Below, one piece after another: positions 32,842-48,773 of a stretch of DNA of 64,000 nt. Both the position numbers and the translations under genes were made by a program. Below the pieces are notes generated by a model, which had not been told where the DNA came from, made no database searches, and saw nothing but the letters and a program-made list of their open reading frames with translations. Source of the DNA: Bixzunavirus cane17 (taxonomy: Duplodnaviria; Heunggongvirae; Uroviricota; Caudoviricetes); IMG/VR virus record IMGVR_UViG_2974759174_000001; one strand, written 5' to 3'. Numbering within the stretch: position 1 is the first letter of the stretch; each line of letters starts with the position of its first letter.

Positions 32842-35800
32842 GTGAGTAGCCCCATCTACAAGGCCGGGTCCAACTGGTCGGCAGAGGTCAATCGCCTGCG
32901 CAAGGCGGGCGTGAACATGCCGAACAGCCCCACCATGGCCCGCGCCCAGGCTGCTGCGCTCCAGAACACCGTGGACAACAAGCCGCTGATCGACTACTTC
33001 CAGGGGCGCCGCCGCGCCGCCGAGGCCAACCGCCAGCGCCTGGCCAGCTACCGCAAGCAGGGCAACTTCGGCTCCAACATGCAGATCGCCATGCCCAAGA
33101 TCCGCCAGCCGCTGGGCACGCTGGCCGACAAGGGCATTCCGTTCAATGTCGAGGACGAAGAAGAGCTTCGGGTCATCAGACACTGGTGCAGACTCTTCTA
33201 TGCCACCCACGACCTGGTCCCGCTGCTCATCGACATCTACTCGAAGTTTCCGGTCGTCGGCATGGAGTTCGACTCCAAGGACCCGCTGATCAAGACGTTC
33301 TACGAGGACCTGTTCTTCGGCGAAGACCTCAACTACCTGGAGTTCCTGCCCGACCAGTTCGCGCGCGAGTACTTCACCGTCGGTGAGGTCACCTCGCTGG
33401 CGCACTTCAACGAGTCACTTGGCGTCTGGAGCTCCGAGGAGATCCTTAACCCCGACATGCTGCGTGTCAGCCGGTCGATGTTCGTCCAGCGCGAGCGTGT
33501 GCAGCTCATGGTCAAGGACCTCGTCGACCACCTGCGTCAGGGGCCGACCACGGCGGGCGGCAACATGTCGACCGTCGAGGAGACGCCGTCGGAGCGTGAG
33601 CAGCGGATGCGCGAGTTCCAGGACCTGCAGCGCCGCTACCCCGAGATCATCCAGGCCGCGATGCAGAACGACGGCCTCGACATCTCCGAGGCCCTGATCA
33701 GCCGCGTGGTCAACCGGCCCACCGCCTGGGCCACCCGGGGCGCCCCGCACCTGCTGCGCAGCTTCCGGACCCTGATGGCCGAAGAGTCGCTCAACGCCGC
33801 CCAGGACGCGGTGGCCGATCGCCTCTACAGCCCGCTGGTGCTGGCCACCCTGGGCATCGAGGACATGGGCGACGGCGAGCCGTGGATTCCCGACCAGGGC
33901 GAGCTCGACGAGGTCCGCGACGACATGCAGTCGCTGCTGGCCGCTGACTTCCGCCTGATGGTGCACAACTTCGGCCTCAAGGTCGAGAACGTGTTCGGGC
34001 GCGAGAGCGTGCCCAACCTCGACGCCGACTACGACCGCATCGAGCGCAAGCTGCTGCAGGCCTGGGGCATCGGTGAGGCGCTGATCTCCGGCGGCACCGG
34101 TGGCGCCTACGCCTCCAGCGCGCTCAACCGTGAGTTCGTCACCCAGATCATGACAGGCTTCCAGAACGCTCTCAAGCGCCACATCCGGCGCCGGTGCGAG
34201 GTGGTCGCCGAGGCGCAGGGTCACTATGACTACGACCTCAAGGGCGGGGTCCGCGTCCCGATCTACCGCGAGATCGTCGAGTACGACGAGGAGACCGGCC
34301 AGGAGTACATCCGCAAGGTCCCCAAGCTGCTCATCCCGGAGATCAAGTTCTCCTGCGTGGTTCCTGGCACCCAGGTTCTCACCCCGACCGGCCAGCGCAG
34401 CGTCGAGGACATCCAGCCTGGCGACGAGGTCATCGCCTGGGACGGCACCGGCTACGTCATCGACACCGCCCTACACACCGGCATCGAGCATCGCGACCGT
34501 CTGGTCGAGGTGACCACTGCGACCGGACGCACGGTGCGCTGCACCGCCGATCACCCGTTCTGGACTGACCGGGGATGGGTGCTGGCTGAGAACCTCACTA
34601 CCGACAGTCTGATTCGCACGTCTGCCGGTCAGTTGGCGGCGCACATCGAGTCTGATGACGACCTGGACATGCTGCGGTTTCTGGGTCTGCTGGTTGGTGA
34701 CGGCAACTACTCGACCACCCATGTGTCGCTTTCGGTCAGCGACCCCGAGGTGGATGCGTTCGTCTGCGAGCAGGCCGAGCGGATGGGCCTGACCGCCCGA
34801 CGGAAGGCCGATGCTCGCACCGACAAGGTGTGGTACCGGACGTTCGTCCGGCCCGCGCCGTGGAAGGGCAACGCGCTCCGCAACCCGCTGCACACGCTGC
34901 TGCGCGAGCAGGGCATGTGGGGCAAGAATGCCCACACCAAGCGGGTGCCGCCGATGGTGTGGGCGGCGGGGGCCAAGGGGCGCGCGGCGTTCCTGTCCGG
35001 CTACTTCGACGCGGACGGCTACGCCTGCCGCACCTCCGGCCTCAAGATCACGTCGGTCAACCGCCTCCTGCTGGACGACTGCCAGGTGCTGTTTGAGTCG
35101 CTGGGCATCCGCGCCCAGGTGCGCTCTTACGCCTACCGCTACGACGGCCAGAAGAACCCCGGCGTGCAGTCGGTCAACCACTTGACGGTCAGCAACAACC
35201 ACTACTTCCAGATGCTGCGGGACACCCTGTCGCCGGTAATCGGCAGCAAAACCGCCGCACTAGACGACATGGCCCGCCCGTCCACGCGGGGCCGGAAGGC
35301 TCCGCGCCCGGTGGAGTGGGATCAGGTCACGTCGGTGACCCACCTGGCTGAGGGCGGCGACATCGTCACCCTGGGCATCACCAGCACCCATACTCATGTC
35401 ACGGCGGGCCTGGTGTCGCACAACACGCTCAACCTGCGTGACGAGGCCCAAGAGCGTGCCTTCATCGCCCAGCTCAAGGGCATGGGCGTGCCGGTCAGCG
35501 ACAAGACGCTGGCGGTCAACATCGACATGAAGTTCGACCAGGAGCTGGAACGTCAGGCCGACGAGACCGTGCAGAAGCTCATGGCCACCGCACAGGCCAT
35601 GAAGAAGGTCCAGGACCTGTGCGACGCGCAGAACCTGCCCTACCCGCCGGAGCTGGCCCAGCACCTGCAGTCCACTCTGGCGCTGCGCCAGGGCAAGACC
35701 CAGACCGAGCTGGGCGAGGCCCAGGCGGTCGCGGGCGGGGCTCAGGCCGAACTGCAGACCAAGCAGATCGAGATGCAGGAAATGATGATGGACCAGCAGA

Positions 35801-36537
35801 TGGCCGGTGGGGTGATGCCCGGCCAACCGATGCTGCCCCCGGGCGCTGCCGGTCCGCCTCCGGGTGCTCCCGGCGATCCTGCTGCCGGTGGCCCGCCCCC
35901 GCCCGCCGGTGGTCCGATGGGCGGTCCTCCGGTGGCCCCGGCGCCTGGCGTCGCCGGGCCGGGCAACGCCCCGGCGAGCTTCTACGCGGCCAGCCTGCGC
36001 ACGGCGGACGCCATCAACGGCCCGACCGGCACCGGCCCGTCGGCAGACGGCCCGCTGGGTCCGACCGGCCCCGAGTTGCCGCCCGGTGTGCCCGAGCCGA
36101 CTGAGGTCCCGCGTAACCGTCAGCGTCCGGCGGAGTCCGACGACAACCATCCGGGTGGCAACCTCAAGCCCGCCAGCCGGAACCGCAAGCGCACCCGCAA
36201 AGGCCAGGAGGAGCCCCGTCGGCTCACCCGCTGGGAGAAGGGTCCCTCCAGCTACGGCAAGAGCAAGATGGCTTCCGAGGAGCATGTGGTTGCTCAGATC
36301 CGTCGGCGCGAGGTCGTTGCCAACTGGGACTGGTCACAGTTTGGTAACGCTCCCCGCGTTGCTGACTTGGTAGCTGACCCGCACTTTTACCAGGCCACCA
36401 ACATGCAGGCGTATCAGGGACAGTTGCAGGCTGACTGGCCCGAGATCCAGGCCGGTGGCGCCGAGGAGAGCCGCCGGATTCTGGACGATATGCTCAGCCA
36501 GTTTCAAGAGATCTTTGGTGTCGAACCGCAGTGGTAA
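32842..36537 (+). CDS. putative portal (head-tail connector) protein interrupted by an intein; 1231-aa precursor, 874-aa extein; no Walker A motif, so not a terminase
   Basis: intein starts CVVPGTQVLT after EIKFS and ends VSHN followed by T; Pro/Gly-rich C-terminus; the portal call is an inference from size and position. Confidence 0.6.
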   Translation: MSSPIYKAGSNWSAEVNRLRKAGVNMPNSPTMARAQAAALQNTVDNKPLIDYFQGRRRAAEANRQRLASYRKQGNFGSNMQIAMPKIRQPLGTLADKGIPFNVEDEEELRVIRHWCRLFYATHDLVPLLIDIYSKFPVVGMEFDSKDPLIKTFYEDLFFGEDLNYLEFLPDQFAREYFTVGEVTSLAHFNESLGVWSSEEILNPDMLRVSRSMFVQRERVQLMVKDLVDHLRQGPTTAGGNMSTVEETPSEREQRMREFQDLQRRYPEIIQAAMQNDGLDISEALISRVVNRPTAWATRGAPHLLRSFRTLMAEESLNAAQDAVADRLYSPLVLATLGIEDMGDGEPWIPDQGELDEVRDDMQSLLAADFRLMVHNFGLKVENVFGRESVPNLDADYDRIERKLLQAWGIGEALISGGTGGAYASSALNREFVTQIMTGFQNALKRHIRRRCEVVAEAQGHYDYDLKGGVRVPIYREIVEYDEETGQEYIRKVPKLLIPEIKFSCVVPGTQVLTPTGQRSVEDIQPGDEVIAWDGTGYVIDTALHTGIEHRDRLVEVTTATGRTVRCTADHPFWTDRGWVLAENLTTDSLIRTSAGQLAAHIESDDDLDMLRFLGLLVGDGNYSTTHVSLSVSDPEVDAFVCEQAERMGLTARRKADARTDKVWYRTFVRPAPWKGNALRNPLHTLLREQGMWGKNAHTKRVPPMVWAAGAKGRAAFLSGYFDADGYACRTSGLKITSVNRLLLDDCQVLFESLGIRAQVRSYAYRYDGQKNPGVQSVNHLTVSNNHYFQMLRDTLSPVIGSKTAALDDMARPSTRGRKAPRPVEWDQVTSVTHLAEGGDIVTLGITSTHTHVTAGLVSHNTLNLRDEAQERAFIAQLKGMGVPVSDKTLAVNIDMKFDQELERQADETVQKLMATAQAMKKVQDLCDAQNLPYPPELAQHLQSTLALRQGKTQTELGEAQAVAGGAQAELQTKQIEMQEMMMDQQMAGGVMPGQPMLPPGAAGPPPGAPGDPAAGGPPPPAGGPMGGPPVAPAPGVAGPGNAPASFYAASLRTADAINGPTGTGPSADGPLGPTGPELPPGVPEPTEVPRNRQRPAESDDNHPGGNLKPASRNRKRTRKGQEEPRRLTRWEKGPSSYGKSKMASEEHVVAQIRRREVVANWDWSQFGNAPRVADLVADPHFYQATNMQAYQGQLQADWPEIQAGGAEESRRILDDMLSQFQEIFGVEPQW
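34354..35424 (+). mobile_element. intein (357 aa) with LAGLIDADG homing endonuclease domain inside the putative portal gene
   Basis: Cys1 TGC 34354; block B TADHPFWT; LAGLIDADG motifs LRFLGLLVGDGNYS and AAFLSGYFDADGYA; terminal HN 35419-35424, +1 Thr. Confidence 0.75.
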
Positions 36538-37294: not shown

Positions 37295-38761
37295 GTGCTC
37301 GATATTCAGTTCACCGATGAGATTGTCGTCGAGGTGCTCGACAGCAACTTCTCCGACAGCCGGGTCTGCGTGGCAGCCCGGACGTCGACAGCAGGTGCTG
37401 GCGCCGATGACAGCGAGCGCTACGGGCTGATCAACGCCCTGATGCGTGACCGTCACGGCACGCCGTTCGAGCACATGAACGCGACCTTCCGGGTGACCGC
37501 GCCGATCTTCGTCTGGCGCGAGCACCACCGGCACAGGTCGGGCTTCTGCGTTGCAGGGTCCACCCGCGTGCCTGTTGGTTCCGGCAAGGACGGCAGGACC
37601 AAGACCATCGAGGACATCTACCGTGACTGGCACCTGGGGGTCCCCGATTCGTTGGGGAGGAACAGGAAGCTGCCAAGCTGTCGCAACCTTGCTACCCGAA
37701 CGGTCAACCTCGACACCGGATTGGTGGAAGCCGCCCGCATGGTCGACGTCTTCCAGTCAGGCGTCAAGCCGATGATCTGGCTGCGGTGGGAGAACGGCAA
37801 GGGGCTCCGGTGTACTCGGGAGCATCGAGTGTGGACTCCCGAGGGTTGGGTCAAAGCGGGCGACCTGCAGGTCGGTGACTTGGTCGGTCGCATCGGTCTG
37901 GTCGCCTACGGCGAGGCTCCCCGCTTCTACTCCAAGAAGCTGCGCGAGGGTATCGGCATCTGGACTTCGCAGCAGCGCGATCTGATCCAGGAGGTGGACA
38001 CCTGTCATCGCTGCGAGGGGGTGTTCTCCAAGAGTGATCTGGAACTCGATCATGTCATTCCGGTCTGTGAAGACCTCAAGCTGGCGCTGGACAGGGATAA
38101 TCTCGCTCCGATCTGTGCTCCCTGCCATGACGTCAAGTCTCGTGAGGAGACGTCACGCAATTACGAGAACCGCCGCCAGCGTGCCAATGGTGTGCGATTC
38201 GAGAAGGTGACGTCCATCGAGGACGGCGGCGAGGAGATGACTTACGACCTGGAGATGCCGGGTCCGTATCACAACTTCATTGCCAATGGTCTGGTTGTTC
38301 ACAACAGCTACAACGAGGAGTCCGGGCGCTACAAGCAGCTCGATCCGGTCTTCTACGTCCCCGGAGAGACCCGACCGATCGCCAAGGTCGAGGGCACCCG
38401 AAACATGGACTACGTCCTGGAGAAGGGCACTGCCGACCAGCACGCCCTGATCGCCAACGCGATGTGGGCCACCTGTTCTGGTGCCTATCGCCAGTACGAG
38501 GCCATGCTCGACGCGGGCATCGTGCGCGAGGTCGCACGCATGGTCCTCCCGGTGAACATCATGAGCACCTGCATCGTGACCTGCAACGCGCGGTCGCTGA
38601 TGCACTTCCTGTCGTTGCGGCAGCGCCACGACGACGCCAAGTTCCCCAGCAAGCCCCAGTACGAGATCAACTTGGTCGCCAATGGGTACGAGCGGCTGCT
38701 GGCCGAAGAAGCACCGTTGGTGCACCGCAGTTATGTCGAAAACGGGCGAGTCGCCCCGTAG
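37295..38761 (+). CDS. thyX: flavin-dependent thymidylate synthase ThyX interrupted by an HNH-type intein (488-aa precursor, 235-aa extein)
   Basis: ThyX signature REHHRHRSGF then intein then SYNEESGRY (RHR-x7-S motif split by the intein). Confidence 0.85.
   Translation: MLDIQFTDEIVVEVLDSNFSDSRVCVAARTSTAGAGADDSERYGLINALMRDRHGTPFEHMNATFRVTAPIFVWREHHRHRSGFCVAGSTRVPVGSGKDGRTKTIEDIYRDWHLGVPDSLGRNRKLPSCRNLATRTVNLDTGLVEAARMVDVFQSGVKPMIWLRWENGKGLRCTREHRVWTPEGWVKAGDLQVGDLVGRIGLVAYGEAPRFYSKKLREGIGIWTSQQRDLIQEVDTCHRCEGVFSKSDLELDHVIPVCEDLKLALDRDNLAPICAPCHDVKSREETSRNYENRRQRANGVRFEKVTSIEDGGEEMTYDLEMPGPYHNFIANGLVVHNSYNEESGRYKQLDPVFYVPGETRPIAKVEGTRNMDYVLEKGTADQHALIANAMWATCSGAYRQYEAMLDAGIVREVARMVLPVNIMSTCIVTCNARSLMHFLSLRQRHDDAKFPSKPQYEINLVANGYERLLAEEAPLVHRSYVENGRVAP
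37547..38305 (+). mobile_element. mini-intein with HNH endonuclease domain (253 aa) inserted in the ThyX active-site motif
   Basis: Cys1 TGC 37547; HNH CHRCEGVFSKSDLELDHVIPV ... CAPCH; ends LVVHN then Ser+1. Confidence 0.8.
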
Positions 38762-39633: not shown

Positions 39634-42600
39634 ATGGCGACGGTTTACACCGATTACGGTCCGGGCGAGATCATCGCATCGGAGACCGTGCGGGGCCGCA
39701 CTCAGTACCAGGTTCGAGTGGCCGGGTACGGGGAGTTCTGGCTGGACGCGACCAAGGTGGGCAGCGTCCACGAAGCGTGGGCCCCGCTGGACACCGACAA
39801 CTCGGTCAACCTTCCGTACGACCCCTCTCCGCAGTACCCCGCGCTGCCGGGCGACACCGAGAGCACCATTCAGCCGATCCACGAGATCGACGCCGACGAG
39901 CGGCTGTCCCCGGCGGACTCGATCACCTTCGAGGACCGCAGTGACGACGAGTCGATCATCGACGGCCACAGCGACAACTTCGCCAAGAGCGCTGCCTACG
40001 GCGACCCCACCACAAGCGAGCCCGGCTACAGCCACGGCCTGGAATGGGACGCCCCGGAGCGCAGCGAGTACGCGCACCCCGACTTCAAGCACTTTCACGA
40101 CGACCAGTACGAGGAAGAGGACCCGCTTCAGCAGGCCATGGCCGAAGAAGACGGCGCCCCCGACTGGCACCCCAGCGACCAGTACGGCGACCTGAACAAG
40201 CCGTACCCGGCGGACACCTGGCGCGGGTCGCATCCGGACCTGCCCGGCCACATGGCCAGCTCACACGAGGCCGCTGCCTTCCTCATCCCGCTCATGGGCG
40301 CCGGAGCCGGTGCTGCCGCTGGTGGAGCCGGGGCCGGTCTGGGCGGCGCGGTCGCCGGAGGCGTGGCCCGTGGCGTCGGCATGGGCGTGGCTCAGGACAT
40401 GCTCGGTGGTGGCGGCGACGGTCAGCAGGAGCCCGGCATGGTCGACCAGGCGATCGACACCATTCAGCCCGGACCCGGCTGGGGAGAGCTGCAGAAGGGC
40501 GCCGCTCTGGATCGGTGGCTGTCCGGACAGGACCAGGGGACCGGCACTGCTGCTGGACTCGGCGATCGCTACATCGACGTCACCGCTGCCGTCGACCCCA
40601 GCGACCCGATCTCGATGTTCCGGCACGACCCGGTCGCCTACATCAGCCGCACCGGCCACGTCCACGACGAGCCGGTCAGCGAAGAGATGCAGCACTACGG
40701 CCAGCTGGTCGAGGCCAACCCGCAGATCCGCGAGGCCGCGTGGAAGGACGTCCGGGCCAAGGCGATGCGTCTGCGCCGCGAGGGCCGGGTGCATGTCAAG
40801 GACGTCGCGCCGGACCGGATCTACGCCAGTGTCGACGGCGACCACGGCACCTATGAGGTGATGATCGCCAAGGGCGGTGCCTTCGGTGGCCTCGGTGGCG
40901 GTCACGCGATCAGCAACTGGCGTTGCGCGTGCGAGTGGGGCAAGTGGGCCTTCCAGCGCCGGATGACCTACGTCGGTCGTCTGTGCAGCCACGGCTACGC
41001 CGCTTACCTCACCATGCAGTCCGAGCACATGAAGGGCAAGCCGAGCCAGCGTCGTCGCTCGCCGTACCGCAAGCGTGCCGACGCGCTGCAGAACGGCCCG
41101 CAGCGCTTGGTGCCCGAGCTGGCCGTCAACGACCTCGACGACGCGCACACCTTCCTCGACGTCACCGAGGACGAGCGCAAGGAGACCGGGCCGGACGACA
41201 TCGTCAGCGAGAAGGACATCGTCCACTTCTCCCGGCTGATGGCCAAGTGCGACGCCGAACGTCTGCCCTACCCCCGGACCCTGGTGGCCTTCCTGGAGCG
41301 TTACGCCGACGACCAGTCCAAGGAGGACTGGAAGATCGAGGACACCGGCAAGGCGGGACCGGCGCTCGAAGAGCTGCGCGACTGGGCCGACACCTCGCAG
41401 GAGGACTACCTCGGCAACATGGAGGAGCGCGTCGAGGACATCCGCGACGCCGTCGACACCGCGCGCGAGCACGGCGTGGACGCCTCGCAGCTGACCGCCG
41501 GAGTGCACTTCCGCACCGCCGCCCCGAAGCCCGAGGTGACCTCGGATGGTTCGGGCGGCAAGATTCAGCAGACCCGGCAGTTCTCCCGTGACCCGGGAAC
41601 CTCGATCAGCGACTGGCTGGGTGTCGGCGGGACCCCCGGTGCCGCTGGCACCCGGTCCAACGGCGCAGGCCAGTCGATGAACCAGAGCCGTGACTCCGGA
41701 GGAGTTCAGGACACCGATTCCACCCAGGCCAAGTCGAGCGGCGGTGGCTTCGACCCGAACATGAACGACCGCAGCAACCGTCCGGTCTCCGAGGGCGGCG
41801 GTGCCACCAACGGCACTCCGGCAGGATGGTCGGCGGCTGACGCGGCCAGCCCGGGCAGCAACAACGGCCCGCATGGTGCGGCAGGCAGCGCGACCAACCC
41901 GACACCGGGCCAGCCGGGCAACAACACCCCGGCTGTGCCGGGTGCGGCCCCGAAGAACAACCTGGCCGGACCGGCAGGGACCAACACCCCCAGCGCTACC
42001 CCTCCCGGCGGCGGACAGATCGGCCAGGGTGAGTACCAGATCCAGTCCGGCGACACCCTGAGCGACATCGCGCAGCGTGCCGGATACGGCGGCGATTACA
42101 ACTCGCTGGCTCAGCAGAACAACATCGCCGACCCCGACAAGATCTTTGCGGGCGACACGATCAACATCGGCACCCCGGGCGGCGGAGCGACGACACCGGA
42201 CGTCGACCTCTCGGCAGCGACGCCGGGCGGCGGAGCGGATGCCAACAACACCGCCTCGGACTTCGCGGGCACGAGCACCAGCGGCGCGACCGACTCCATG
42301 GGGACGAACAACACCCCGACCGACAACGCGGCGGCGCAGACCACCACCGAGACCAACAAGACAGGCCGTCGTCGGCGCCAGGCGGCGCCGTCGGGCAGCT
42401 CGGCCACTCCGGCTCCGTCCACCACGCCGGATGACGAGGGTCTGGTCGACTCGATGGACAACCCGGCAGCGCCGACCGGAGGCACCCCGGCCAGCAACAC
42501 CGCGCTCAGCTCGCCGAACAACGATCTGGGTGACCCGAGCAGTGCGATCGACACCGGAGCGACCACCGGCGGTACGCCGGACGCCACCGGTGCGGGCACA

Positions 42601-43437
42601 GACGCCTCCACTCCGGGCGGGTTCGACCTGAGCCAGTTCAACGACACCATCAGCGGTGTCGGGGACGCGGTGAACACCGGCGTCGGTATCGCCAGCGACA
42701 TCGCCGGTGGTGTGGGTGACGTGGTCAGCGGCATCGGCTCGATCTTCAGCTCGCGTCAGGACTACGACGACTGGCACCGCTACGCCTACCCCGAGGCGGG
42801 CGACCACAAGCCGTTCGCCGGTTCGGGCCCGCAGGAGCCGCTGAAGTTCACCCCGTCGACCGAGTACGCCGACAAGGCCCGCCGGAAGATGGACGACGTC
42901 ACCGACCTGGACTACGACCACAGCAAGCCGGTCAATCCCCGACAGTCGTCGGCGGGCGGCGGCATCCAGCGCGCCGGACGTGGCGCGCGCCGGACGGTCG
43001 AGCCGGTGGTGGTCCGCGAGCAGCGTCCGGGTGGGCGTGTAGCCGCGCAGCAGCCCCACGTGCCGGACGACTTCGACCCACTGGCCCCGCGCACGGCGGC
43101 GAGCTTCGACGACCCGTACGACGCTCCTGATGTCGATCAGGCCGCAATGCGCATCGCGGCCAACACCGAGGGCGACATCGTCGCGGCCTTCCAGCGCAGC
43201 GCCGGAGCCGAAGCCATCATGTCCAGCTCGGGTGGCGGCGCAGCGAGCCAGTACGACGACTTCTCCTCGTCGCCTGCGGTGATCGCGGCCATGCAGCGCA
43301 CCGCCGGACGGCACTACTCGCCATCGGAGCAGGCCGAGCTGATCCGCGAGGGCGACCGTGGCGGGGCCGGAAACCTCGACGCGCTGGACCTGCGCGGAAC
43401 TCACTACGAGGCAGAGCACAGCGTCGGCCTGTGGTGA
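39634..43437 (+). CDS. giant virion-associated-like protein (1267 aa) with Gly/Ala-rich hydrophobic segment, SWIM zinc finger and LysM peptidoglycan-binding domain; candidate internal/ejection protein
   Basis: SWIM CACEWGKW ... RLCSHGYAA; LysM YQIQSGDTLSDIAQRAGYGGDYNSLAQQNNIADPDKIFAGDTINIG; GAGAGAAAGGAGAGLGGAVAGG. Confidence 0.8.
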   Translation: MATVYTDYGPGEIIASETVRGRTQYQVRVAGYGEFWLDATKVGSVHEAWAPLDTDNSVNLPYDPSPQYPALPGDTESTIQPIHEIDADERLSPADSITFEDRSDDESIIDGHSDNFAKSAAYGDPTTSEPGYSHGLEWDAPERSEYAHPDFKHFHDDQYEEEDPLQQAMAEEDGAPDWHPSDQYGDLNKPYPADTWRGSHPDLPGHMASSHEAAAFLIPLMGAGAGAAAGGAGAGLGGAVAGGVARGVGMGVAQDMLGGGGDGQQEPGMVDQAIDTIQPGPGWGELQKGAALDRWLSGQDQGTGTAAGLGDRYIDVTAAVDPSDPISMFRHDPVAYISRTGHVHDEPVSEEMQHYGQLVEANPQIREAAWKDVRAKAMRLRREGRVHVKDVAPDRIYASVDGDHGTYEVMIAKGGAFGGLGGGHAISNWRCACEWGKWAFQRRMTYVGRLCSHGYAAYLTMQSEHMKGKPSQRRRSPYRKRADALQNGPQRLVPELAVNDLDDAHTFLDVTEDERKETGPDDIVSEKDIVHFSRLMAKCDAERLPYPRTLVAFLERYADDQSKEDWKIEDTGKAGPALEELRDWADTSQEDYLGNMEERVEDIRDAVDTAREHGVDASQLTAGVHFRTAAPKPEVTSDGSGGKIQQTRQFSRDPGTSISDWLGVGGTPGAAGTRSNGAGQSMNQSRDSGGVQDTDSTQAKSSGGGFDPNMNDRSNRPVSEGGGATNGTPAGWSAADAASPGSNNGPHGAAGSATNPTPGQPGNNTPAVPGAAPKNNLAGPAGTNTPSATPPGGGQIGQGEYQIQSGDTLSDIAQRAGYGGDYNSLAQQNNIADPDKIFAGDTINIGTPGGGATTPDVDLSAATPGGGADANNTASDFAGTSTSGATDSMGTNNTPTDNAAAQTTTETNKTGRRRRQAAPSGSSATPAPSTTPDDEGLVDSMDNPAAPTGGTPASNTALSSPNNDLGDPSSAIDTGATTGGTPDATGAGTDASTPGGFDLSQFNDTISGVGDAVNTGVGIASDIAGGVGDVVSGIGSIFSSRQDYDDWHRYAYPEAGDHKPFAGSGPQEPLKFTPSTEYADKARRKMDDVTDLDYDHSKPVNPRQSSAGGGIQRAGRGARRTVEPVVVREQRPGGRVAAQQPHVPDDFDPLAPRTAASFDDPYDAPDVDQAAMRIAANTEGDIVAAFQRSAGAEAIMSSSGGGAASQYDDFSSSPAVIAAMQRTAGRHYSPSEQAELIREGDRGGAGNLDALDLRGTHYEAEHSVGLW

Positions 43438-43472
43438 CCACGACGACCGCCTAGAAGAAGAGAGGAGGTGTC

Positions 43473-46400
43473 GTGGCTACCAAGCACGTACTGCACGCCG
43501 AACGCCGGGATGTGACGACCCGGCCTACGGACAAGGCGATCCGGCGCAAGCTGAAGCACGCCGAGACTCTCGGCGACTTCAAGATGCGCCCGGGTTACCT
43601 CTACACCGTGGTCAGGGCCATCTCGGCGCGAGTTAACCAGAACTACGATGGTTGGCCATCAGACGAGCTAAAGAAGGCCGCGCACACCTTCATCGGAAAG
43701 CCGGTCTTCGTCAACCACGAGAACTACGACCCCAAGAAGGCCCGGGGAGTTGTTGTCGCGGCTCGTTACGTCGAGAACGGCAATGACAAGTTCATCGAGG
43801 TCATTCAGGAAATCGATGCCAAGCGTTTCCCAAAGCTGGCCCACGAGATCCGCACCGGCGGACTTGACTCTGTGTCGATGGGCGCCGAGGCCGGATTCAC
43901 GATCTGCTCGTACTGCGGCAACAAGGCGACCGATGTCCCCGAGATGTGCGACCACGTCCTGTACCACAAGGGCGAGCGTTTGCCACGGCACAACCGCAAG
44001 ACGGGCAAGGTCGAGGACGTTCTCGTCTACGAGTCCTGCCACAAGATCAGCTTCTTCGAGTTGAGCTACGTCTTCGACCCCGCCGACGAGACCGCTGTGG
44101 CTTCGCGCGTGCTGGTGGCCAACAACAAGACCGCCGGTGACTGCCCGCCCGGCCAGGACTGCACGGTCGGCGGCAATCCCGAGGACCAGATCACTCCGGA
44201 CTCGGCCAACAATCCGGTCAACGGCGGCAGCAACGACAGCAGCAGCACCGGCGGCGGTGCTGGAGCGAGCGCGGCCACCACGGTTTCTGGCGGCGAATTG
44301 GGCGAGCCTGGCGAGTCGGTGTCCGCCGGAGGAGGAGCCGGGGCCGACGGCATCATGGACGCCTCGCGCCCGCTCTATGACCAGCTCAAGACGATCGACC
44401 CGAACGCCGATATCGGCGGCTACCGCCCTGGCGGCGACGGCTACGACGAGCACAACAACGGCGCGCTCGACTACATGACCACCGATCCGGCAGTGGCCGA
44501 GCAGGTCAAGCAGAAGGCGTTCGAGAACGGCGCTCCGTACGTCATCTGGCAGCAGCAGCTGCACTACCCCGACGGCTCCACCAAAGCGATGGAGGACCGA
44601 GGTAGTCCGACGCAGAACCACATGGACCACGTGCACACGGGCCCGCTGACCGGACCGAAGGCTGCCCGGATCGAGCACACGGTTCTGGTTACCGCCGGGT
44701 TCGTCGATCCGGCTGTCGACTGCACCGTGTGCCGTCAGGCCCGGGTGGCCACCAAGTGCCACTACTGCGCCGGAGACGCCGAGGAGGGCTTCTCCTCGTG
44801 TGCCGCGCATCGGCCCATGGAAGAGAAGAAGTTCAGGGCCGCACAGCGAGAGGAGGCCGCGATGACATTCGAGGCTAGCGTGATTCGTGAGTTCCTCGGT
44901 GGCCCGCCACCCCCGGCCCGTCCGATGACCGGCATCGAGCACCAGCCTGGTCTCAATCCCGAGGACTATGTCGTGCCGTACAAGGGGCGCGGCTACCAGC
45001 CCGGCATGCCGGTAGACGTCTACCGCAACTTGCACTCGGAGAAGACCGGCACCGGTCTGTGGTCAGTCCGGCACAAGGGTCAGGTGGTCGGTCACGCCGA
45101 CTTCATCCACATGCCGCAGGGCAAGTTCTTCGTGGGCGAGGGCGGCAACGCCAAGGTTCAGGAGACCGGCCAGAAGAACGTGCACGCCGGTGCGCGTGGC
45201 GTGCTGGGCCCGGTCCCGCACGACCACGACCCGTCGCAGTACGTCGGCATCACCTACAACCCCAAGGCCGGAGACACCAGCTTCTACCAGCGCGAGACCA
45301 AGGAGCCGGTCTGGGAGGCCGATCATGTGCACCTGGGTCCCGACGGCAAGGCCTACACCCTCGGTCCGCGCAGCGGCATGGCCAGCGCCGACCAGAAGGT
45401 GTTCGAGGCCATGGTCCTGCAGGCCTACGGCGAGACCGAGGCGCCCACCCGTGTGGACACCCTGCGTGAAGAGGGCTCGGCGCCCGAGGACGACAACAAC
45501 GACTTCTACCACTACGTCGAGCCGCCCAAGGAGCTGCAGACCCCGGATCTGTCCGAGGCCGCACAGATCGACCGTCAGCAGGCCGAGAACCAGGGCGACA
45601 CGATGGACGTCGACGGCGACCCCGGACCGCACAGCGTGATGAACCAGGAGCCCGTCCCGGGCGCCGGTGGGGCCCCGCAGCAGCAGTTCATGACGCTGCA
45701 GATCCCGATCCCGCCACAGGGCCAGGCGCCCGGCGTGCCGATGCAGTCGTTCGCGCCGCCCGCGCCCGCCCCGGCGCCACCCATGCCTCCCCAGCAGATC
45801 GCCGCGTCGACGCTGGACTTCTTCGACCGGTACTACGGGCGCCGCGTGGCCAACTGGCTCGACGCCATTGAGGCCGGACGCGAGTTCACCGCCGAGGAGG
45901 CCTCGGACTACAGGCGGGAAGCAATGAAGCTGTCGACCCTGCAAAAAGCACCCTCAGCTTCAACAACAAGTAGGAACCCCATGAAAGGAACCGCCAACAT
46001 GGCACGCAGCAATCTCGCCTCGCGCGGCAAGGTGGTGACGGCTGGTCGTCGGCAGCACTTCGCCGAGGGTCCGTTGGTGGACTCGGGCGACCAGAGCCGT
46101 AACGACCAGGGCGAGCAGGAAGAGGCCTTCATCTCGACCACGCCGCCCGAGGAGTCCGTGGTGGCTCCCACCGACGACACCCCCAACATCTCGAACACCG
46201 AGCAGAACCTCGTCGCCCGCGTGAAGCGAGGCCGTGCCCAGCTCATGGCCGACGCGCAGAAGCTGGCTCAGCTCCAGGCTCAGCGCCAGCGCCGCATGGC
46301 CAACGAGGCCGGTGGCCCGGTGGCTACCGAGGTCAACCCGACGGTGAACTCGGGCCCCGGCGCCGAGGAGCTCACCGGCGATGACTTCGAGTCGGCCAAC

Positions 46401-47195
46401 CCCAACGACGGTGTCGTCGAGACTCAGCCCAAGGATGCGAGCCTGCATGCGTTCCGCACCTTCGACTCGTGGCTGAAGCGCAAGACGGGCAAGTCGGCGC
46501 GGTACCACACCAGCGCGACCATTCGCCGTGCGGCGGACGACTTCAGCCGTCAGTCGAACGTCTCGGTCCAGGCCCTGTTCCCGGCCCTGGGAATCGTGCT
46601 GCGAGAAGCACGAAAGAACGAAAAGGCAGCAGCCAACACCAAGGGAGCCAACATGCGCAAGCGTGCCGACGAGAAGCTGGAAGTCGCAGCTCCGGATGGA
46701 CGTGTTGACGTCGAGGCTCCGACCCGAGGAACGACTGACGCCGAGGCGCAGGCCTCGCAGTTCGACCTCAACGACTTCGGCAACAACGCCGGAGACGACA
46801 TCGCCGATCCGGATCTGAGCACCGATCAGAACTGGGCCCCCGGTGAGGCCAAGAAGTCCAGCAAGGTCAAGACGGCAGGTGGCGTTCTCGCCTTCCGTCT
46901 GGCGGAAGCCATGATCGCTGCTGGCATCGAGCCGAACACCGTCGAGCGGAAGTATGCGCTGGCGGCAGAGTTCGAAAACATGAATCGCGGTGCGGTCCAG
47001 GACCGTATCGCACTGTGCGAGCGCTTCGTGCCGGTTCTGGCCGCAGCTCGCCGACAGGTCGCCAGCGGTAGTACTCGCGGGGCCGCACTGAAGTCCCCCA
47101 TCCCTTCGGGCCTGGTGCAGGGCGCACAGCGCACCGCCGGACGCGCAGTGGTGGCGGCAAACGACCCCCGTAACGACGCTTCGCTCTTCATCTAA
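43473..47195 (+). CDS. giant fusion protein (1240 aa): N-terminal prohead-protease-like domain (S78/U35-like), M15-family zinc peptidase domain, zinc ribbons, Pro-rich and coiled-coil C-terminus
   Basis: VNHENYDPKKARGVVV ... GGLDSVSMGAEAGF (His/Ser protease-like); GGYRPGGDGYDEHNNGALDYMTTD ... DHVHTG (M15 SxHxxGxAxD ... DHxH); GTG with GAGGAGG RBS. Confidence 0.8.
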   Translation: MATKHVLHAERRDVTTRPTDKAIRRKLKHAETLGDFKMRPGYLYTVVRAISARVNQNYDGWPSDELKKAAHTFIGKPVFVNHENYDPKKARGVVVAARYVENGNDKFIEVIQEIDAKRFPKLAHEIRTGGLDSVSMGAEAGFTICSYCGNKATDVPEMCDHVLYHKGERLPRHNRKTGKVEDVLVYESCHKISFFELSYVFDPADETAVASRVLVANNKTAGDCPPGQDCTVGGNPEDQITPDSANNPVNGGSNDSSSTGGGAGASAATTVSGGELGEPGESVSAGGGAGADGIMDASRPLYDQLKTIDPNADIGGYRPGGDGYDEHNNGALDYMTTDPAVAEQVKQKAFENGAPYVIWQQQLHYPDGSTKAMEDRGSPTQNHMDHVHTGPLTGPKAARIEHTVLVTAGFVDPAVDCTVCRQARVATKCHYCAGDAEEGFSSCAAHRPMEEKKFRAAQREEAAMTFEASVIREFLGGPPPPARPMTGIEHQPGLNPEDYVVPYKGRGYQPGMPVDVYRNLHSEKTGTGLWSVRHKGQVVGHADFIHMPQGKFFVGEGGNAKVQETGQKNVHAGARGVLGPVPHDHDPSQYVGITYNPKAGDTSFYQRETKEPVWEADHVHLGPDGKAYTLGPRSGMASADQKVFEAMVLQAYGETEAPTRVDTLREEGSAPEDDNNDFYHYVEPPKELQTPDLSEAAQIDRQQAENQGDTMDVDGDPGPHSVMNQEPVPGAGGAPQQQFMTLQIPIPPQGQAPGVPMQSFAPPAPAPAPPMPPQQIAASTLDFFDRYYGRRVANWLDAIEAGREFTAEEASDYRREAMKLSTLQKAPSASTTSRNPMKGTANMARSNLASRGKVVTAGRRQHFAEGPLVDSGDQSRNDQGEQEEAFISTTPPEESVVAPTDDTPNISNTEQNLVARVKRGRAQLMADAQKLAQLQAQRQRRMANEAGGPVATEVNPTVNSGPGAEELTGDDFESANPNDGVVETQPKDASLHAFRTFDSWLKRKTGKSARYHTSATIRRAADDFSRQSNVSVQALFPALGIVLREARKNEKAAANTKGANMRKRADEKLEVAAPDGRVDVEAPTRGTTDAEAQASQFDLNDFGNNAGDDIADPDLSTDQNWAPGEAKKSSKVKTAGGVLAFRLAEAMIAAGIEPNTVERKYALAAEFENMNRGAVQDRIALCERFVPVLAAARRQVASGSTRGAALKSPIPSGLVQGAQRTAGRAVVAANDPRNDASLFI

Positions 47196-47225
47196 GCGAA
47201 GCAAGGACCCAGGAGGACAACGGAA

Positions 47226-47768
47226 ATGACTTTCCGTCCACCAGCGTCCAATCCCGGCCAGAAGCGGACGCTCGTTCCGCGCTACGCCAACACTCAGGCC
47301 ACGCCCTGGGCAGGCTTTCTGGACCCGGATCTGGACGTTGACTTCGACATCCTGCCCGGCACCGTGATGCAGCGGCTGTACGGCGACGTGTTCGCTCCGT
47401 ACACCGGTGAAGCGGGCACCGTGCCCTTCGGCCTGTCGGCCCTGTTCCACGCTCCTCGTCTGGGCGTGACCGAGGTCTCCAGCGCGGGCACCGGCCTGTT
47501 CACCGTGTGGGTGGGCGACAGCCAGGCCGTCTTCGACGTGCTGGCACCAGCATTCGACGTGGAAGCCGACTGGCCCGCCGCAGGCGAGACCGGCCCGGCC
47601 CGCGTCATGTTGACGGCGAACAGCAAGGGACGACTGACTCCCGAGGGCGTGACCCCGGAGAACGTCATCGCCGAGCTGATCGACATCCCGTCGACGGACA
47701 AGATCACCATCCGCCTCAACCGCCTCGACCTGGCGGCGACCGGCGGTGGTCTGGCGGGAGGCAGCTAA
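47226..47768 (+). CDS. hypothetical structural protein (180 aa), possible scaffold or decoration protein
   Basis: RBS CAGGAGGA; position just upstream of the capsid gene. Confidence 0.65.
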   Translation: MTFRPPASNPGQKRTLVPRYANTQATPWAGFLDPDLDVDFDILPGTVMQRLYGDVFAPYTGEAGTVPFGLSALFHAPRLGVTEVSSAGTGLFTVWVGDSQAVFDVLAPAFDVEADWPAAGETGPARVMLTANSKGRLTPEGVTPENVIAELIDIPSTDKITIRLNRLDLAATGGGLAGGS

Positions 47769-47771
47769 GCC

Positions 47772-48773
47772 ATGACTCTTCCAGTTGCAGTCGGTAGCGG
47801 CCTCGGTCGCTTCGCCAAGGCATCCGACGACTACGTGGCCGACATTGTCGAGGCCAAGCAGCGCATGGGCGGACGCAAGCTCAGCGCTCGCGAGAAGCAG
47901 GCCAAGCTCGCTCACATCCTGAGCGACAAGGTCGGCGGCATCCAGCGCCTGGGCCAGTCGATGATCGGCCCGATCCAGCTCCAGCTGCGTTACCAGGGCA
48001 TCCTGCGTAACGTCCTGCTGGAGGACACGCTGACCCCCGGCGTGCCGATCCAGTACGACGTGCTGGACGACCTGGGCCAGGCCTACATGCTGCACGGCAA
48101 CGAGGGCGAGATCCGCATCACCCCCTTCGAGGGCAAGCGCATCGAGGTCCAGCTGTTCCGCATCGCGAGCTTCCCGCAGATCAAGAAGGAAGACCTGTAC
48201 TACCTCCGCAGCAACATCGTGGAGTACACGCAGGACATGACCAAGCAGGCCATCATGCGCCAGGAGGACTCGCGCCTCGTGACGCTGCTGGAAGCTGCAG
48301 CGGTCTCCTACCGCGTCGTGGACAGCTCGGCTCAGCCGGGCGTCGGCGCACTGCCCAACGAGATCACCATCGCAGGCTCGCACCTGATGCCCGATGATCT
48401 CTACACGGCGGTGACCTACACCGACCAGCGTCAGCTGGACAGCTCGCGCCTGCTGGCGAACCCGCAGGAGTACCGCGACCTGTACCGGTGGGACATCAAC
48501 ACGACCGGTTGGGCCTTCAAGGACTCGGTGGTCGCTGGCGAGCGCATCGTCCAGTTCGGCGAGTTCCAGATCGGCAAGTCGATCATCATCCCGCGTGGCA
48601 CCGTCTACCTGACCCCGGAGCCCGAGTTCCTCGGCGTCTTCCCGGTCATGTACTCCCTCGATGTCGAGGAGGACAACAAGGTGGAGCGGTTCAACAAGGG
48701 CTGGGTCATGGACGAGCTGGTCGGCATGGCCGTGCTCAATCCAAGAGGCATAGTCATCCTTAGGAAAGCCTGA
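47772..48773 (+). CDS. putative major capsid protein (333 aa, HK97-fold-like)
   Basis: size, position after protease/scaffold, followed by the strongest terminator in the window; fold assignment is an inference. Confidence 0.6.
   Translation: MTLPVAVGSGLGRFAKASDDYVADIVEAKQRMGGRKLSAREKQAKLAHILSDKVGGIQRLGQSMIGPIQLQLRYQGILRNVLLEDTLTPGVPIQYDVLDDLGQAYMLHGNEGEIRITPFEGKRIEVQLFRIASFPQIKKEDLYYLRSNIVEYTQDMTKQAIMRQEDSRLVTLLEAAAVSYRVVDSSAQPGVGALPNEITIAGSHLMPDDLYTAVTYTDQRQLDSSRLLANPQEYRDLYRWDINTTGWAFKDSVVAGERIVQFGEFQIGKSIIIPRGTVYLTPEPEFLGVFPVMYSLDVEEDNKVERFNKGWVMDELVGMAVLNPRGIVILRKA

What the first reader, a model, noticed from the sequence alone, without database searches (positions are those of the whole stretch)
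39634..47195. Two giant proteins carrying cell-wall modules and SWIM fingers; no tape-measure or terminase detected; podovirus-like ejection proteins?
The 1267-aa protein has a LysM domain, a SWIM finger and a TMP-like Gly/Ala-rich hydrophobic segment. The 1240-aa protein fuses a prohead-protease-like N-terminus to an M15 zinc peptidase domain and zinc ribbons. There is no recognisable tape-measure protein. The only GxxxxGK(S/T) match in the window is an incidental one in a low-complexity stretch of the 1140-aa acidic protein, so no credible large-terminase ATPase is present. Together these suggest a short-tailed virion whose internal proteins carry peptidoglycan-binding and hydrolysing activities for DNA ejection. 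A protease-peptidase fusion of this size is unusual.
Basis: inference. Interest (0 to 1): 0.65.

Follow-up and report, generated by a model that had tools for sequence, protein, structure and literature searches.

The report
Myovirus head protease polyprotein with cell-wall cargo
The two giant genes are head-assembly genes of a known contractile-tailed mycobacteriophage, not signs of a short-tailed virus: one is the unannotated capsid-maturation protease fused to a scaffold-like domain with a cell-wall hydrolase inserted between them, and the other is a SWIM/LysM protein from a large uncharacterised family.

Summary
The window is bases 1-64000 of Mycobacterium phage Cane17 (Bixzunavirus, cluster C1). 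The two ORFs are gp85 (39634-43437) and gp86 (43473-47195). The domain calls largely hold: LysM, an invariant CxCx17CxH SWIM signature, a Gly/Ala-rich segment, a protease-like N-terminus, a zinc-hydrolase motif and Cys clusters.

The short-tailed reading is wrong. Tail sheath, tape measure and terminase lie just outside the window.

Residues ~217-644 are a lineage-specific cargo insert. It carries the TM4 tape-measure "motif 3" peptidoglycan hydrolase (noted in Bxz1 gp95 in 2006), a zinc knuckle and an L5-gp82-like domain.

gp85 belongs to a family of at least 832 clusters, encoded between portal and protease where context was examined; a third of sampled members carry LysM.

Packaging into the capsid and ejection of these cell-wall modules is plausible but untested.

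The parts
39634..43437 (+). gp85 (1267 aa): SWIM/LysM giant protein encoded between the portal and protease genes
   Evidence: Annotated CDS in NC_054716.1, labelled hypothetical; the same gene in phage Blubba is labelled LysM-like peptidoglycan binding protein. Full-length hit to phrog_2940, function unknown. Third-position GC 0.87.
39634..39933 (+). gp85 conserved N-terminal domain (aa 1-100), with the Pro-rich motif NSxxLPYDPxPQYP...IQP..EIDADERxSPxDS
   Evidence: Conserved in the Phrappuccino, Finch and Skog orthologues and in the 42-member family consensus.
40267..40407 (+). gp85 Gly/Ala-rich hydrophobic segment (aa 212-258), glycine-zipper-like
   Evidence: 19-residue Kyte-Doolittle hydropathy peaks at 1.45, with a run of small-xxx-small residues. 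Also present in homologue P0030.
40720..41034 (+). gp85 SWIM-type zinc-finger module (aa 363-467; C431, C433, C451, H453)
   Evidence: CxCx17CxH is invariant in alignments A2 and A6. The AlphaFold model shows a helix, three strands, then helices, with pLDDT about 80 locally. The Finch orthologue scores 19.3 bits on Pfam SWIM against a cut-off of 19.6, and 4 of 42 family members hit SWIM. gp85 itself gives no Pfam SWIM hit.
42034..42168 (+). gp85 LysM peptidoglycan-binding domain (aa 801-845), inside a long G/A/P/S/T-rich low-complexity region (aa ~640-1000)
   Evidence: Pfam LysM E 5.8e-10, 39.4 bits. PDB LysM chains match. Composition. The domain is absent from the Finch orthologue, and 14 of 42 family members have one.
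42655..42753 (+). gp85 second Gly-zipper-like hydrophobic run (aa 1008-1040)
   Evidence: Run of small-xxx-small residues; 19-residue hydropathy 1.21.
43294..43407 (+). gp85 conserved C-terminal tail motif (aa 1221-1258): QRTAGRxYSxxEQxELxxE...LDLxGTHY
   Evidence: Conserved from Cane17 to the 398-411 aa metagenomic homologues and in the A6 consensus.
43473..47195 (+). gp86 (1240 aa): prohead protease, cargo insert and scaffold-like domain in one polyprotein
   Evidence: Annotated CDS, labelled hypothetical. Orthologue of Bxz1 gp95 by synteny and 93.5% identity.
43578..44120 (+). gp86 assemblin-fold serine prohead protease (aa 36-216; His82, Ser135), with an embedded Cys3His site (C145, C148, C159, H161; C189 also invariant)
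44121..45404 (+). gp86 lineage-specific cargo insert (aa 217-644) between the protease core and its conserved C-terminal tail motif
   Evidence: Absent from Phrappuccino gp53, Finch gp17 and metagenomic P0007/P0009, where the protease is followed directly by the GETEAP..YVEPP motif. Skog has only the L5-gp82-like part. Bxz1 has a further 150-aa module at aa 222.
44367..44642 (+). gp86 peptidoglycan-hydrolase domain of the TM4 tape-measure motif 3 (mt3) family (aa 299-390; H327, D333, I358-W359, H383, H386, H388)
   Evidence: 41% identity to TM4 gp17 (E 5e-8) and hits to many tape measure proteins. phrog_6090 and phrog_16241. PDB 9flh, E 3.6e-8. Invariant residues in alignment A5. Bxz1 gp95 is listed as an mt3 carrier in PMC1796659.
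44721..44810 (+). gp86 Cys-rich zinc-knuckle-like cluster (aa 417-446: CxxC-x8-CxxC-x10-CxxH)
   Evidence: Read directly from the sequence. No profile match.
45003..45356 (+). gp86 L5-gp82-like domain (aa 511-628), function unknown
   Evidence: Pfam PF25735, E 3.5e-22; phrog_586. Also present in Skog gp157.
45405..45623 (+). gp86 conserved acidic tail motif of the protease (aa 645-717; GETEAPxxVDTLRE...DFYHYVEPP)
   Evidence: Follows the protease core directly in P0007/P0009, Phrappuccino and Finch.
45983..46001 (+). Candidate nested translation start inside gp86: Shine-Dalgarno-like GAAAGGA (45983-45989) and in-frame ATG for M843 (45999-46001)
   Evidence: Sequence read. An equivalent AAAGG(A/G) plus ATG sits just upstream of the conserved C-terminal domain in Skog, Phrappuccino and Finch. 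In Skog it is the only strong-SD in-frame ATG among 22.
45999..47195 (+). gp86 C-terminal scaffold-like domain (aa 843-1240)
   Evidence: Conserved in all four cultured lineages (alignment A3). Homologous to the separate 446/451-aa ORF lying between protease and cement/capsid genes in L006/L007 (BLASTP E 1e-3; hhalign probability 87%, E 3.6e-6). Shares the NDQGEQEEAFI motif.
47226..47768 (+). gp87 capsid cement protein (context)
   Evidence: Pfam Phage_cement_3, E 4e-99.
47772..48773 (+). gp88 major capsid protein (context)
   Evidence: phrog_2522 major head protein, E 1.5e-160; annotated as such.
32842..36537 (+). gp79 portal protein, interrupted by an intein (context)
   Evidence: phrog_2833. 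Intein and LAGLIDADG domains at aa 505-861.

Best explanation
gp85 and gp86 are the two large head-morphogenesis genes of a contractile-tailed mycobacteriophage. They sit in the canonical order portal ... gp85 - gp86 - cement - major capsid.

gp86 is the capsid-maturation protease. It has the assemblin fold and a His82/Ser135 pair, and it is made as a polyprotein. The parts in order are: protease core; a variable cargo insert; the protease's own conserved acidic tail; a Pro/Gln-rich linker; and a ~400-aa scaffold-like domain. The scaffold-like domain is probably also translated on its own from a conserved internal Shine-Dalgarno plus ATG at M843. That is the arrangement of lambda C/Nu3 and herpesvirus UL26/UL26.5.

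In cluster C1 the insert has acquired three modules: a peptidoglycan hydrolase of the TM4 tape-measure motif 3 type, a zinc knuckle, and an L5-gp82-like domain.

gp85 belongs to a large family of SWIM-finger proteins. Where genomic context was examined (Cane17, Blubba, Bxz1, three other cultured actinophage genera and two or three metagenomic contigs), its gene lies between portal and protease. Its N- and C-terminal ends are conserved. Its low-complexity middle varies and often carries LysM.

Inferred mechanism: the conserved ends take both proteins into the procapsid. The protease then cuts them. The freed cell-wall modules stay in the head and leave through the tail with the DNA, binding and cutting peptidoglycan at the entry site. 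The TM4 motif 3 does this from a tape measure.

Shown here: phage identity, gene order, folds, motifs, the modular insertion and the homology to split genes. Inferred only: scaffold function, nested translation, packaging, processing and ejection.
For: - Identity and tail type.
- Gene order: portal - SWIM protein - protease - 446/451-aa ORF - Phage_cement_3 - capsid protein in relatives. The same order holds in Phrappuccino, Finch and Skog.
- The C-terminal domain matches the separate ORF of split-gene relatives.
- A conserved internal SD plus ATG is present in four lineages.
- The insert is modular. It is absent in Phrappuccino and Finch, partial in Skog, and enlarged by 150 aa in Bxz1.
- Motif 3 homology and invariant residues. 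Hydrolase activity and its role in infecting stationary-phase cells were shown for TM4 (PMC1796659).
- gp85 family: 832 representatives at E <= 1e-3; Cys/His invariant; conserved termini; LysM in 14 of 42.
- LysM and motif 3 have no substrate in the cytoplasm, so they can only act outside it.
- Head ejection proteins and self-cleavage of a protease C-terminal propeptide are documented in myoviruses (PMC10052503).
Against: - No virion proteomics for any cluster C phage was found in the literature held. Neither gene is labelled a virion protein in any record inspected.
- The link from the scaffold-like domain to the split ORF is moderate: hhalign probability 87% over 90 columns, from shallow alignments of 4 and 2 sequences.
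- Nothing shows that the 446/451-aa ORFs are scaffolds beyond their position and composition.
- Cleavage sites could not be predicted.
- Cane17 already has a tail-associated cell-wall enzyme, gp163, annotated as a minor tail protein with lysin activity (beta-lactamase/DD-peptidase fold). A head-borne hydrolase may therefore be redundant.
- One relative (L006) shows no gp85 homologue in the 20.7-kb stretch fetched around its head genes, where one is expected.
Confidence: 0.6

Rival explanations
1. One reading: the phage is short-tailed, has no tape measure, and uses these two proteins as podovirus-type internal core or ejection proteins in place of a tail tube.
For: No tape measure or terminase gene lies inside the 64-kb window. 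gp86 carries a cell-wall hydrolase, as T7 gp16 does.
Against: The genome continues beyond the window with a tail sheath, frameshifted chaperones, a 752-aa tape measure, a baseplate and a terminase. The taxon is a myovirus genus. There is no homology to T7 or P22 ejection proteins.
Confidence: 0.02
2. Assembly-only model. gp86 is the protease/scaffold and gp85 is an assembly factor. The inserted cell-wall modules are degraded or expelled with the scaffold at maturation, or act only on release at lysis. They are evolutionary passengers and are not delivered to the next host.
For: Scaffold and propeptide fragments normally leave the head at maturation (PMC10052503). The insert is dispensable in related genera. 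The phage has separate lysis enzymes and a tail-associated cell-wall enzyme.
Against: The motif 3 catalytic residues are intact: H327, D333, H383, H386, H388 and the Ile-Trp pair. More than 200 records keep the region at 95% DNA identity or higher. Full-length gp86 protein identity across cluster C1 ranges from about 82% to 100%, mostly 90-95%. LysM recurs in a third of the gp85 family, which argues for selection on an extracytoplasmic function.
Confidence: 0.25
3. External-display model. gp85, and possibly the gp86 cargo, sits on the outside of the capsid or neck. Its LysM acts as an adhesin for cell-wall material, like Hoc or head fibres in other phages.
For: The long low-complexity linkers would suit a tethered surface domain. 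Cane17 encodes other head-surface proteins (head fibre, decoration and cement).
Against: The gene lies between portal and protease, not with the decoration genes. The conserved SWIM core and the N- and C-terminal ends resemble an interior or portal-associated framework. In gp86 the cargo lies between two modules that act inside the procapsid.
Confidence: 0.1

Closest known systems
Lambda gpC/Nu3, P2 gpO and herpesvirus UL26/UL26.5 (protease-scaffold fusions with a nested, 3'-coterminal scaffold gene)
   Same: N-terminal assemblin-fold serine protease, a linker and a C-terminal scaffold-like domain in one ORF just upstream of the capsid gene. A conserved internal SD plus ATG could give the C-terminal domain separately.
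   Different: gp86 is 3-4 times larger. It carries about 430 aa of enzymatic and zinc-binding cargo between the protease core and its tail. Neither the nested start nor the scaffold function is demonstrated. No sequence homology to Nu3, gpO or UL26.5 was tested.
T4 gp21 and jumbo-phage prohead proteases (phiKZ gp175, SPN3US gp245)
   Different: gp86 has an invariant Cys3His site inside the protease fold and a roughly 1000-aa C-terminal extension. Its cleavage specificity is unknown. The Pfam S78_2 match is below threshold (E 0.099).
Mycobacteriophage TM4 tape measure protein motif 3 (mt3; Rv0320/Rv1728c family)
   Same: 41% identity. The invariant residues are H..D, I-W and DRGSxTxNHxDHxH. TM4 mt3 hydrolyses peptidoglycan and helps infection of stationary-phase cells. 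Bxz1 gp95 was listed as a carrier (PMC1796659).
   Different: Here the motif sits in a head-module protease polyprotein of a myovirus, not in a siphovirus tape measure. Cane17's own tape measure (gp124) is a different gene. The His-Asp spacing is one residue shorter in gp86.
T7 gp16 (capsid-internal core protein with a lytic transglycosylase) and T4/SPN3US internal ejection proteins
   Same: The concept of a cell-wall enzyme or other cargo stored in the head and ejected ahead of or with the DNA (for the myovirus precedents).
   Different: No sequence relationship. Cane17 has a contractile tail and a tape measure. Head location and ejection are not shown for gp85 or gp86.
SPP1 gp7 / Mu F-like minor head proteins carrying C-terminal cargo
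   Same: Encoded next to the portal gene, with conserved framework regions plus variable cargo (my knowledge of that family; positional analogy).
   Different: gp85 gave no Pfam match other than LysM, so no Phage_Mu_F match. gp85 has a SWIM finger core that the MuF family lacks. In gp85 the variable part is central, not C-terminal.

Membership tests
Assemblin-fold prohead (capsid maturation) serine protease (T4 gp21 / HK97 gp4 / herpesvirus assemblin) | Assemblin fold | tested here: met
Assemblin-fold prohead (capsid maturation) serine protease (T4 gp21 / HK97 gp4 / herpesvirus assemblin) | Conserved catalytic His and Ser | tested here: met
   H82 (FVNH) and S135 (VSMG) are invariant in 20 homologues. 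Their superposition on the gp21 catalytic residues was not inspected residue by residue.
Assemblin-fold prohead (capsid maturation) serine protease (T4 gp21 / HK97 gp4 / herpesvirus assemblin) | Match to a curated protease sequence profile | tested here: inconclusive
   PHROG 18299 'head maturation protease' E 1e-18. The Pfam Peptidase_S78_2 match is only E 0.099, 13 bits against a cut-off of 24. A profile search of the PDB found nothing.
Assemblin-fold prohead (capsid maturation) serine protease (T4 gp21 / HK97 gp4 / herpesvirus assemblin) | Gene lies between the portal and major capsid genes | tested here: met
Assemblin-fold prohead (capsid maturation) serine protease (T4 gp21 / HK97 gp4 / herpesvirus assemblin) | Cleaves head proteins during maturation | not testable with these tools
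   Needs virion or prohead mass spectrometry, or an active-site mutant.
Protease-scaffold fusion with nested scaffold gene (lambda C/Nu3, herpesvirus UL26/UL26.5) | The C-terminal part of the protease ORF corresponds to the scaffold gene | tested here: inconclusive
   aa 843-1240 is homologous to the separate ORF at the scaffold position in split-gene relatives (BLASTP E 1e-3; hhalign probability 87%). Scaffold function is unproven for either.
Protease-scaffold fusion with nested scaffold gene (lambda C/Nu3, herpesvirus UL26/UL26.5) | In-frame internal initiation site | tested here: met
   AAAGG(A/G) lies 6-9 nt upstream of an in-frame ATG at the start of the conserved domain in Cane17/Bxz1, Skog, Phrappuccino and Finch. 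Met at sequence level only; expression was not tested.
TM4 tape-measure motif 3 (mt3) peptidoglycan hydrolase domain | Sequence homology, including the central Ile-Trp | tested here: met
   tblastn to TM4 gp17: 41% identity, E 5e-8, plus hundreds of tape measure proteins. I358-W359 and 21 other positions are invariant in alignment A5. Bxz1 gp95 is listed in PMC1796659.
TM4 tape-measure motif 3 (mt3) peptidoglycan hydrolase domain | Peptidoglycan-hydrolysing activity | not testable with these tools
   Shown for TM4 mt3 proteins only (PMC1796659).
   The isolated domain gave no Pfam hit even at E <= 10 and no NCBIfam hit at E <= 1.
H-x-H zinc signature | tested here: inconclusive
   The motif 3 relatives have H-x6-D and DH-x-H; gp86 has H327-x5-D333 and H386-x-H388. 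The pattern is LAS-like, but the fold was not modelled. The nearest solved chain, 9flh, is named only 'LysM domain-containing protein'.
SWIM zinc finger (PF04434) | CxCxnCxH signature | tested here: met
   C431-x-C433-x17-C451-x-H453, invariant in 8 and in 42 homologues.
SWIM zinc finger (PF04434) | Match to the Pfam profile above the gathering score | tested here: not met
   gp85 gives no hit. The Finch orthologue scores 19.3 bits against a cut-off of 19.6. Four of 42 family members hit at E <= 1e-3, best 8e-5.
SWIM zinc finger (PF04434) | Beta-sheet plus helix SWIM fold | tested here: inconclusive
LysM peptidoglycan-binding domain (PF01476) | Profile match above the gathering score | tested here: met
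   39.4 bits against a cut-off of 20.9. PDB LysM chains match.
Tail tape measure protein | Encoded after the frameshifted tail chaperones and before the baseplate genes; full-length tape measure homology | tested here: not met
   The real tape measure is gp124, outside the window. gp86 touches tape measure profiles only through the roughly 90-aa motif 3. gp85 has no tape measure hit.
Podovirus internal core / ejection proteins (T7 gp14-16, P22 gp7/gp16/gp20) | Short non-contractile tail and homology to core proteins | tested here: not met
   Sheath, tape measure and baseplate genes are present. No PHROG hit to ejection proteins.

The most novel reading that the evidence does not exclude
The prohead protease-scaffold polyprotein is used as a loading vehicle. 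A hot spot just after the protease core accepts interchangeable cargo modules. Those seen so far are the motif 3 hydrolase, a zinc knuckle, the L5-gp82-like domain and an extra 150-aa module in Bxz1. Because the cargo sits between two procapsid-targeted parts, it would be packed into every capsid, freed by self-cleavage and injected. gp85 would be a second carrier, built on a SWIM framework of unknown role. That would be a general, previously undescribed way for actinobacterial myoviruses to deliver enzymes through the mycobacterial wall.
Probability: 0.3. Interest if true: 0.65.

Novelty: new variant of a known kind. Interest (0 to 1): 0.45.

Why it matters
Bxz1-like (cluster C1) phages are widely used mycobacteriophages. 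More than 200 sequenced genomes carry these two genes as "hypothetical protein", and no capsid-maturation protease was annotated in any actinophage record inspected here.

Assigning gp86 as the protease, fused to a scaffold-like domain, fills that gap. It also exposes a modular site where cell-wall enzymes have been inserted.

If the cargo really is packed and ejected, it would show how a contractile-tailed phage supplements tail-borne enzymes to cross the thick mycobacterial envelope. It would also suggest a natural site for engineering deliverable payloads.

Finally, the gp85 family (at least 832 clusters at 50% identity) is a large uncharacterised group of phage head-module proteins built on a SWIM finger. 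That domain has no known role in virion assembly.

Tried and rejected
- Pfam and NCBIfam on whole proteins and on eight separate segments gave only LysM and L5_gp82. There was no SWIM, M15, S78 (above threshold), MuF, scaffold, tape measure or terminase hit.
- PDB sequence and profile searches found nothing for the protease alignment or for the gp85 family alignment.
- A QR[ST]AG motif shared by the C-termini of gp85 and gp86 looked like a common targeting or cleavage signal. It is conserved only in the gp85 family, not in gp86 orthologues, so I dropped it.
- I looked by eye for cleavage motifs of the T4 and phiKZ types (L/I-x-E, S/A/G-x-E) around the domain junctions and the capsid protein N-terminus (alignments). 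Nothing conserved emerged, so I predict no cleavage sites.
- Literature searches for cluster C virion proteomics, cryo-EM or a named protease found nothing usable. The identity of PDB 9flh could not be traced.
- Metagenomic contexts L014 and L015 were too fragmented to say whether the C-terminal domain stands alone there.
- The long antisense ORFs (40261-43419 and 45960-48383) were rejected as shadows on codon-position GC.

Full report
**Identity of the sequence.** A megablast of 39607-47195 hits 212 phage records. Mycobacterium phage Cane17 (NC_054716.1) matches at 100% identity and at the same coordinates as the window. The window is therefore bases 1-64000 of Cane17, a 160,330-bp Bixzunavirus of actinophage cluster C1 that infects M. 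smegmatis. The finding covers gp85 (39634-43437, 1267 aa) and gp86 (43473-47195, 1240 aa). Both are "hypothetical protein" in RefSeq. The newest record inspected (Blubba, 2024) calls gp85 a "LysM-like peptidoglycan binding protein" and leaves gp86 unnamed. Third-codon-position GC is 0.87 and 0.84, as in the portal and capsid genes, and the long antisense ORFs are shadows.

**The tail-type inference is wrong.** Past the window's end the genome encodes:
- a tail sheath (69184-70929);
- frameshifted tail chaperones;
- a 752-aa tape measure (73188-75446);
- baseplate proteins;
- a large terminase (149239-152262).

PHROG profiles confirm the sheath, the tape measure and the terminase (phrog_2, E 3e-52). 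The absence of these genes from the window reflects where the window was cut. It says nothing about the virion. The Walker-A remark is also inexact: GxxxxGK[ST] occurs three times in long + strand ORFs, in gp76, the portal and the capsid protein.

**Gene context.** The local order is gp76 (1140 aa, acidic), an HNH gene, gp78, the portal gp79, five small or enzymatic genes, gp85, gp86, gp87, then gp88. gp87 is a Phage_cement_3 protein (E 4e-99). gp88 is the major capsid protein. The order portal ... large SWIM/LysM protein, large protease protein, cement, capsid recurs in Bxz1, Phrappuccino, Rhodococcus phage Finch and Gordonia phage Skog. It also recurs in metagenomic relatives.

**gp86 N-terminus is the capsid-maturation protease.**
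- PHROGs give "head maturation protease" at E 1e-18 for aa 61-211.
- tblastn finds about 30% identity to genes annotated as prohead core or head maturation proteases in Erwinia, Dickeya, Burkholderia and Pseudomonas jumbo phages.
- Twenty homologues share invariant H82 (FVNH), S135 (VSMG) and a Cys3His set: C145, C148, C159 and H161. C189 is also invariant.
- An AlphaFold model of aa 1-234 has pLDDT 84.
- Pfam alone would not show this, since the S78_2 match is only E 0.099.
- None of the actinophage records sampled annotates the gene as a protease.

**gp86 is a polyprotein with a cargo insert.** Stand-alone homologues of the protease are 221-302 aa. In contigs L006 and L007 the protease gene is followed by a separate 446- or 451-aa ORF, then the cement and capsid genes.

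The last ~400 residues of gp86 are conserved in Phrappuccino, Finch and Skog (alignment A3). They match the separate ORF by BLASTP (E 1e-3) and by profile-profile comparison (probability 87%, E 3.6e-6 over 90 columns). Both also share a striking NDQGEQEEAFI / NQGDQEDAFI motif.

In P0007/P0009, Phrappuccino and Finch the protease core is followed at once by the acidic motif GETEAPxxVxTLRE...DDYHxYVEPP. In gp86 that motif lies at aa 645-717. Residues ~217-644 of gp86 are therefore an insertion. Skog has only part of it, the L5-gp82-like domain. Bxz1 gp95 has a further 150-aa module at aa 222, the same point.

The Cane17 insert holds four elements:
- a G/A/S-rich linker;
- the motif 3 domain (aa 299-390);
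- a CxxC-x8-CxxC cluster (aa 417-446);
- an L5-gp82-like domain (Pfam E 3.5e-22).

**A probable nested gene.** An in-frame ATG (M843, 45999-46001) lies just upstream of the conserved C-terminal domain. It is preceded by GAAAGGA (45983-45989). Skog and Phrappuccino have AAAGGA 6-9 nt upstream of an ATG at the aligned position. Finch has GAAAGGG plus an ATG 27 residues further on, still upstream of the conserved block. In Skog this is the only one of 22 in-frame ATGs with a strong Shine-Dalgarno sequence. The product would be about 398 aa, similar to the separate ORFs of the split-gene relatives. This is the lambda C/Nu3 and herpesvirus UL26/UL26.5 arrangement (my knowledge of those systems). 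It remains an inference from sequence.

**The "M15" domain is TM4 tape-measure motif 3.** gp86 aa 301-389 is 41% identical to TM4 gp17 and matches hundreds of Mycobacterium and Gordonia tape measure proteins. That similarity explains the PHROG tape-measure hit. Piuri and Hatfull (PMC1796659) showed that motif 3 proteins hydrolyse peptidoglycan and that the motif helps TM4 infect stationary-phase cells. They already listed Bxz1 gp95, the orthologue of Cane17 gp86, as a carrier.

An alignment with TM4, two Gordonia tape measures and PDB 9flh has these invariant residues: H327, D333, I358-W359, D375-R-G-S, N382-H383, D385-H386 and H388. The pattern resembles LAS-type zinc hydrolases, but no M15 profile matches. 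The M15 label is therefore unproven.

**gp85.**
- LysM is solid.
- The SWIM signature C431-x-C433-x17-C451-x-H453 is invariant. A helix and three strands precede it, in the usual bacterial SWIM order.
- Pfam SWIM misses gp85. It scores 19.3 bits in the Finch orthologue against a cut-off of 19.6, and it hits 4 of 42 family members.
- A full HMMER scan finds 832 representative proteins at E <= 1e-3 and 633 at E <= 1e-10, many of them 900-1900 aa.
- The family keeps three framework regions: an N-terminal domain with a Pro-rich motif, the SWIM core with its flanking helices, and a C-terminal tail LRTAGRxYSxxEQxEL...LDLxGTHY.
- The low-complexity middle varies and carries LysM in 14 of 42 members.
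- Short members of 398-411 aa lack the middle.
- One relative (L006) shows no homologue in the 20.7-kb stretch fetched around its head genes. The protein may therefore be accessory to shell assembly.
- No solved structure or named family matches.

**Mechanism.** The following are shown: the head-module position, the protease fold, the modular insertion and intact hydrolase residues.

The rest is inferred, in this order. The conserved frameworks take both proteins into the procapsid. The protease then frees the cargo. LysM and motif 3, which have no cytoplasmic substrate, act on the wall of the next host after ejection.

Myoviruses do pack ejection proteins. T4 and SPN3US are examples, and the SPN3US protease removes its own C-terminal propeptide (PMC10052503). 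Three points weigh against the model:
- no virion proteomics was found for cluster C phages;
- a tail-associated cell-wall enzyme already exists (gp163);
- the cargo might simply be expelled with the scaffold.

I put about 0.6 on the overall model and about 0.3 on actual ejection of the cargo.

**Verdict.** The genes are known ORFs of a well-sampled phage cluster, and one motif was published in 2006. The new points are these: gp86 is the unannotated maturation protease in a protease-cargo-scaffold polyprotein; it probably has a nested scaffold start; the insertion point is a cargo hot spot; and gp85 belongs to a very large SWIM-based family. I rate this a new variant of a known kind, of moderate interest.

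Noticed in passing
window 32842-36537 (gp79 portal), aa ~505-861: The portal gene is interrupted by an intein with a LAGLIDADG homing endonuclease (Hint, Intein_splicing and LAGLIDADG_3 hits). The Bxz1 portal is 874 aa against 1231 aa here, and relatives align to aa 26-506 plus 858-1029.
   Followed up: partly
window 37295-38761 (gp82): RefSeq labels this gene 'HNH endonuclease'. It is a ThyX thymidylate synthase (Thy1, E 4e-37) split by an HNH-containing intein (Intein_splicing, E 1e-14). Blubba annotates the same ORF as ThyX-like.
   Followed up: partly
window 50687-52300 (gp91): A 537-aa GDSL lipase/esterase gene sits inside the head-gene block between the capsid and head-fibre genes. No gene occupies that position in Bxz1. 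It is a possible extra envelope-lipid enzyme.
   Followed up: no
window 44862-44864 (gp86 M464) with AGGAGG 8 nt upstream: A second strong internal Shine-Dalgarno plus ATG lies inside gp86, 47 residues upstream of the L5-gp82-like domain. It is not seen at the equivalent place in Skog, so it may be chance.
   Followed up: partly
window 28573-31995 (gp76): This 1140-aa acidic protein lies upstream of the portal and has no family match. Only aa 772-904 are conserved, in a 234-aa ORF of the metagenomic relative L007. It is another oversized head-module protein with a small conserved core.
   Followed up: no
L003 36240-39263 (Cane17 gp243, outside the window): The large terminase is 1007 aa, and the terminase profile matches in two stretches. 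It may also carry an intein, as the portal and ThyX genes do.
   Followed up: no
A6 members (metagenomic gp85 homologues): Two of 42 sampled gp85-family proteins themselves contain inteins (Hom_end_hint, Intein_splicing and LAGLIDADG_3 hits).
   Followed up: no
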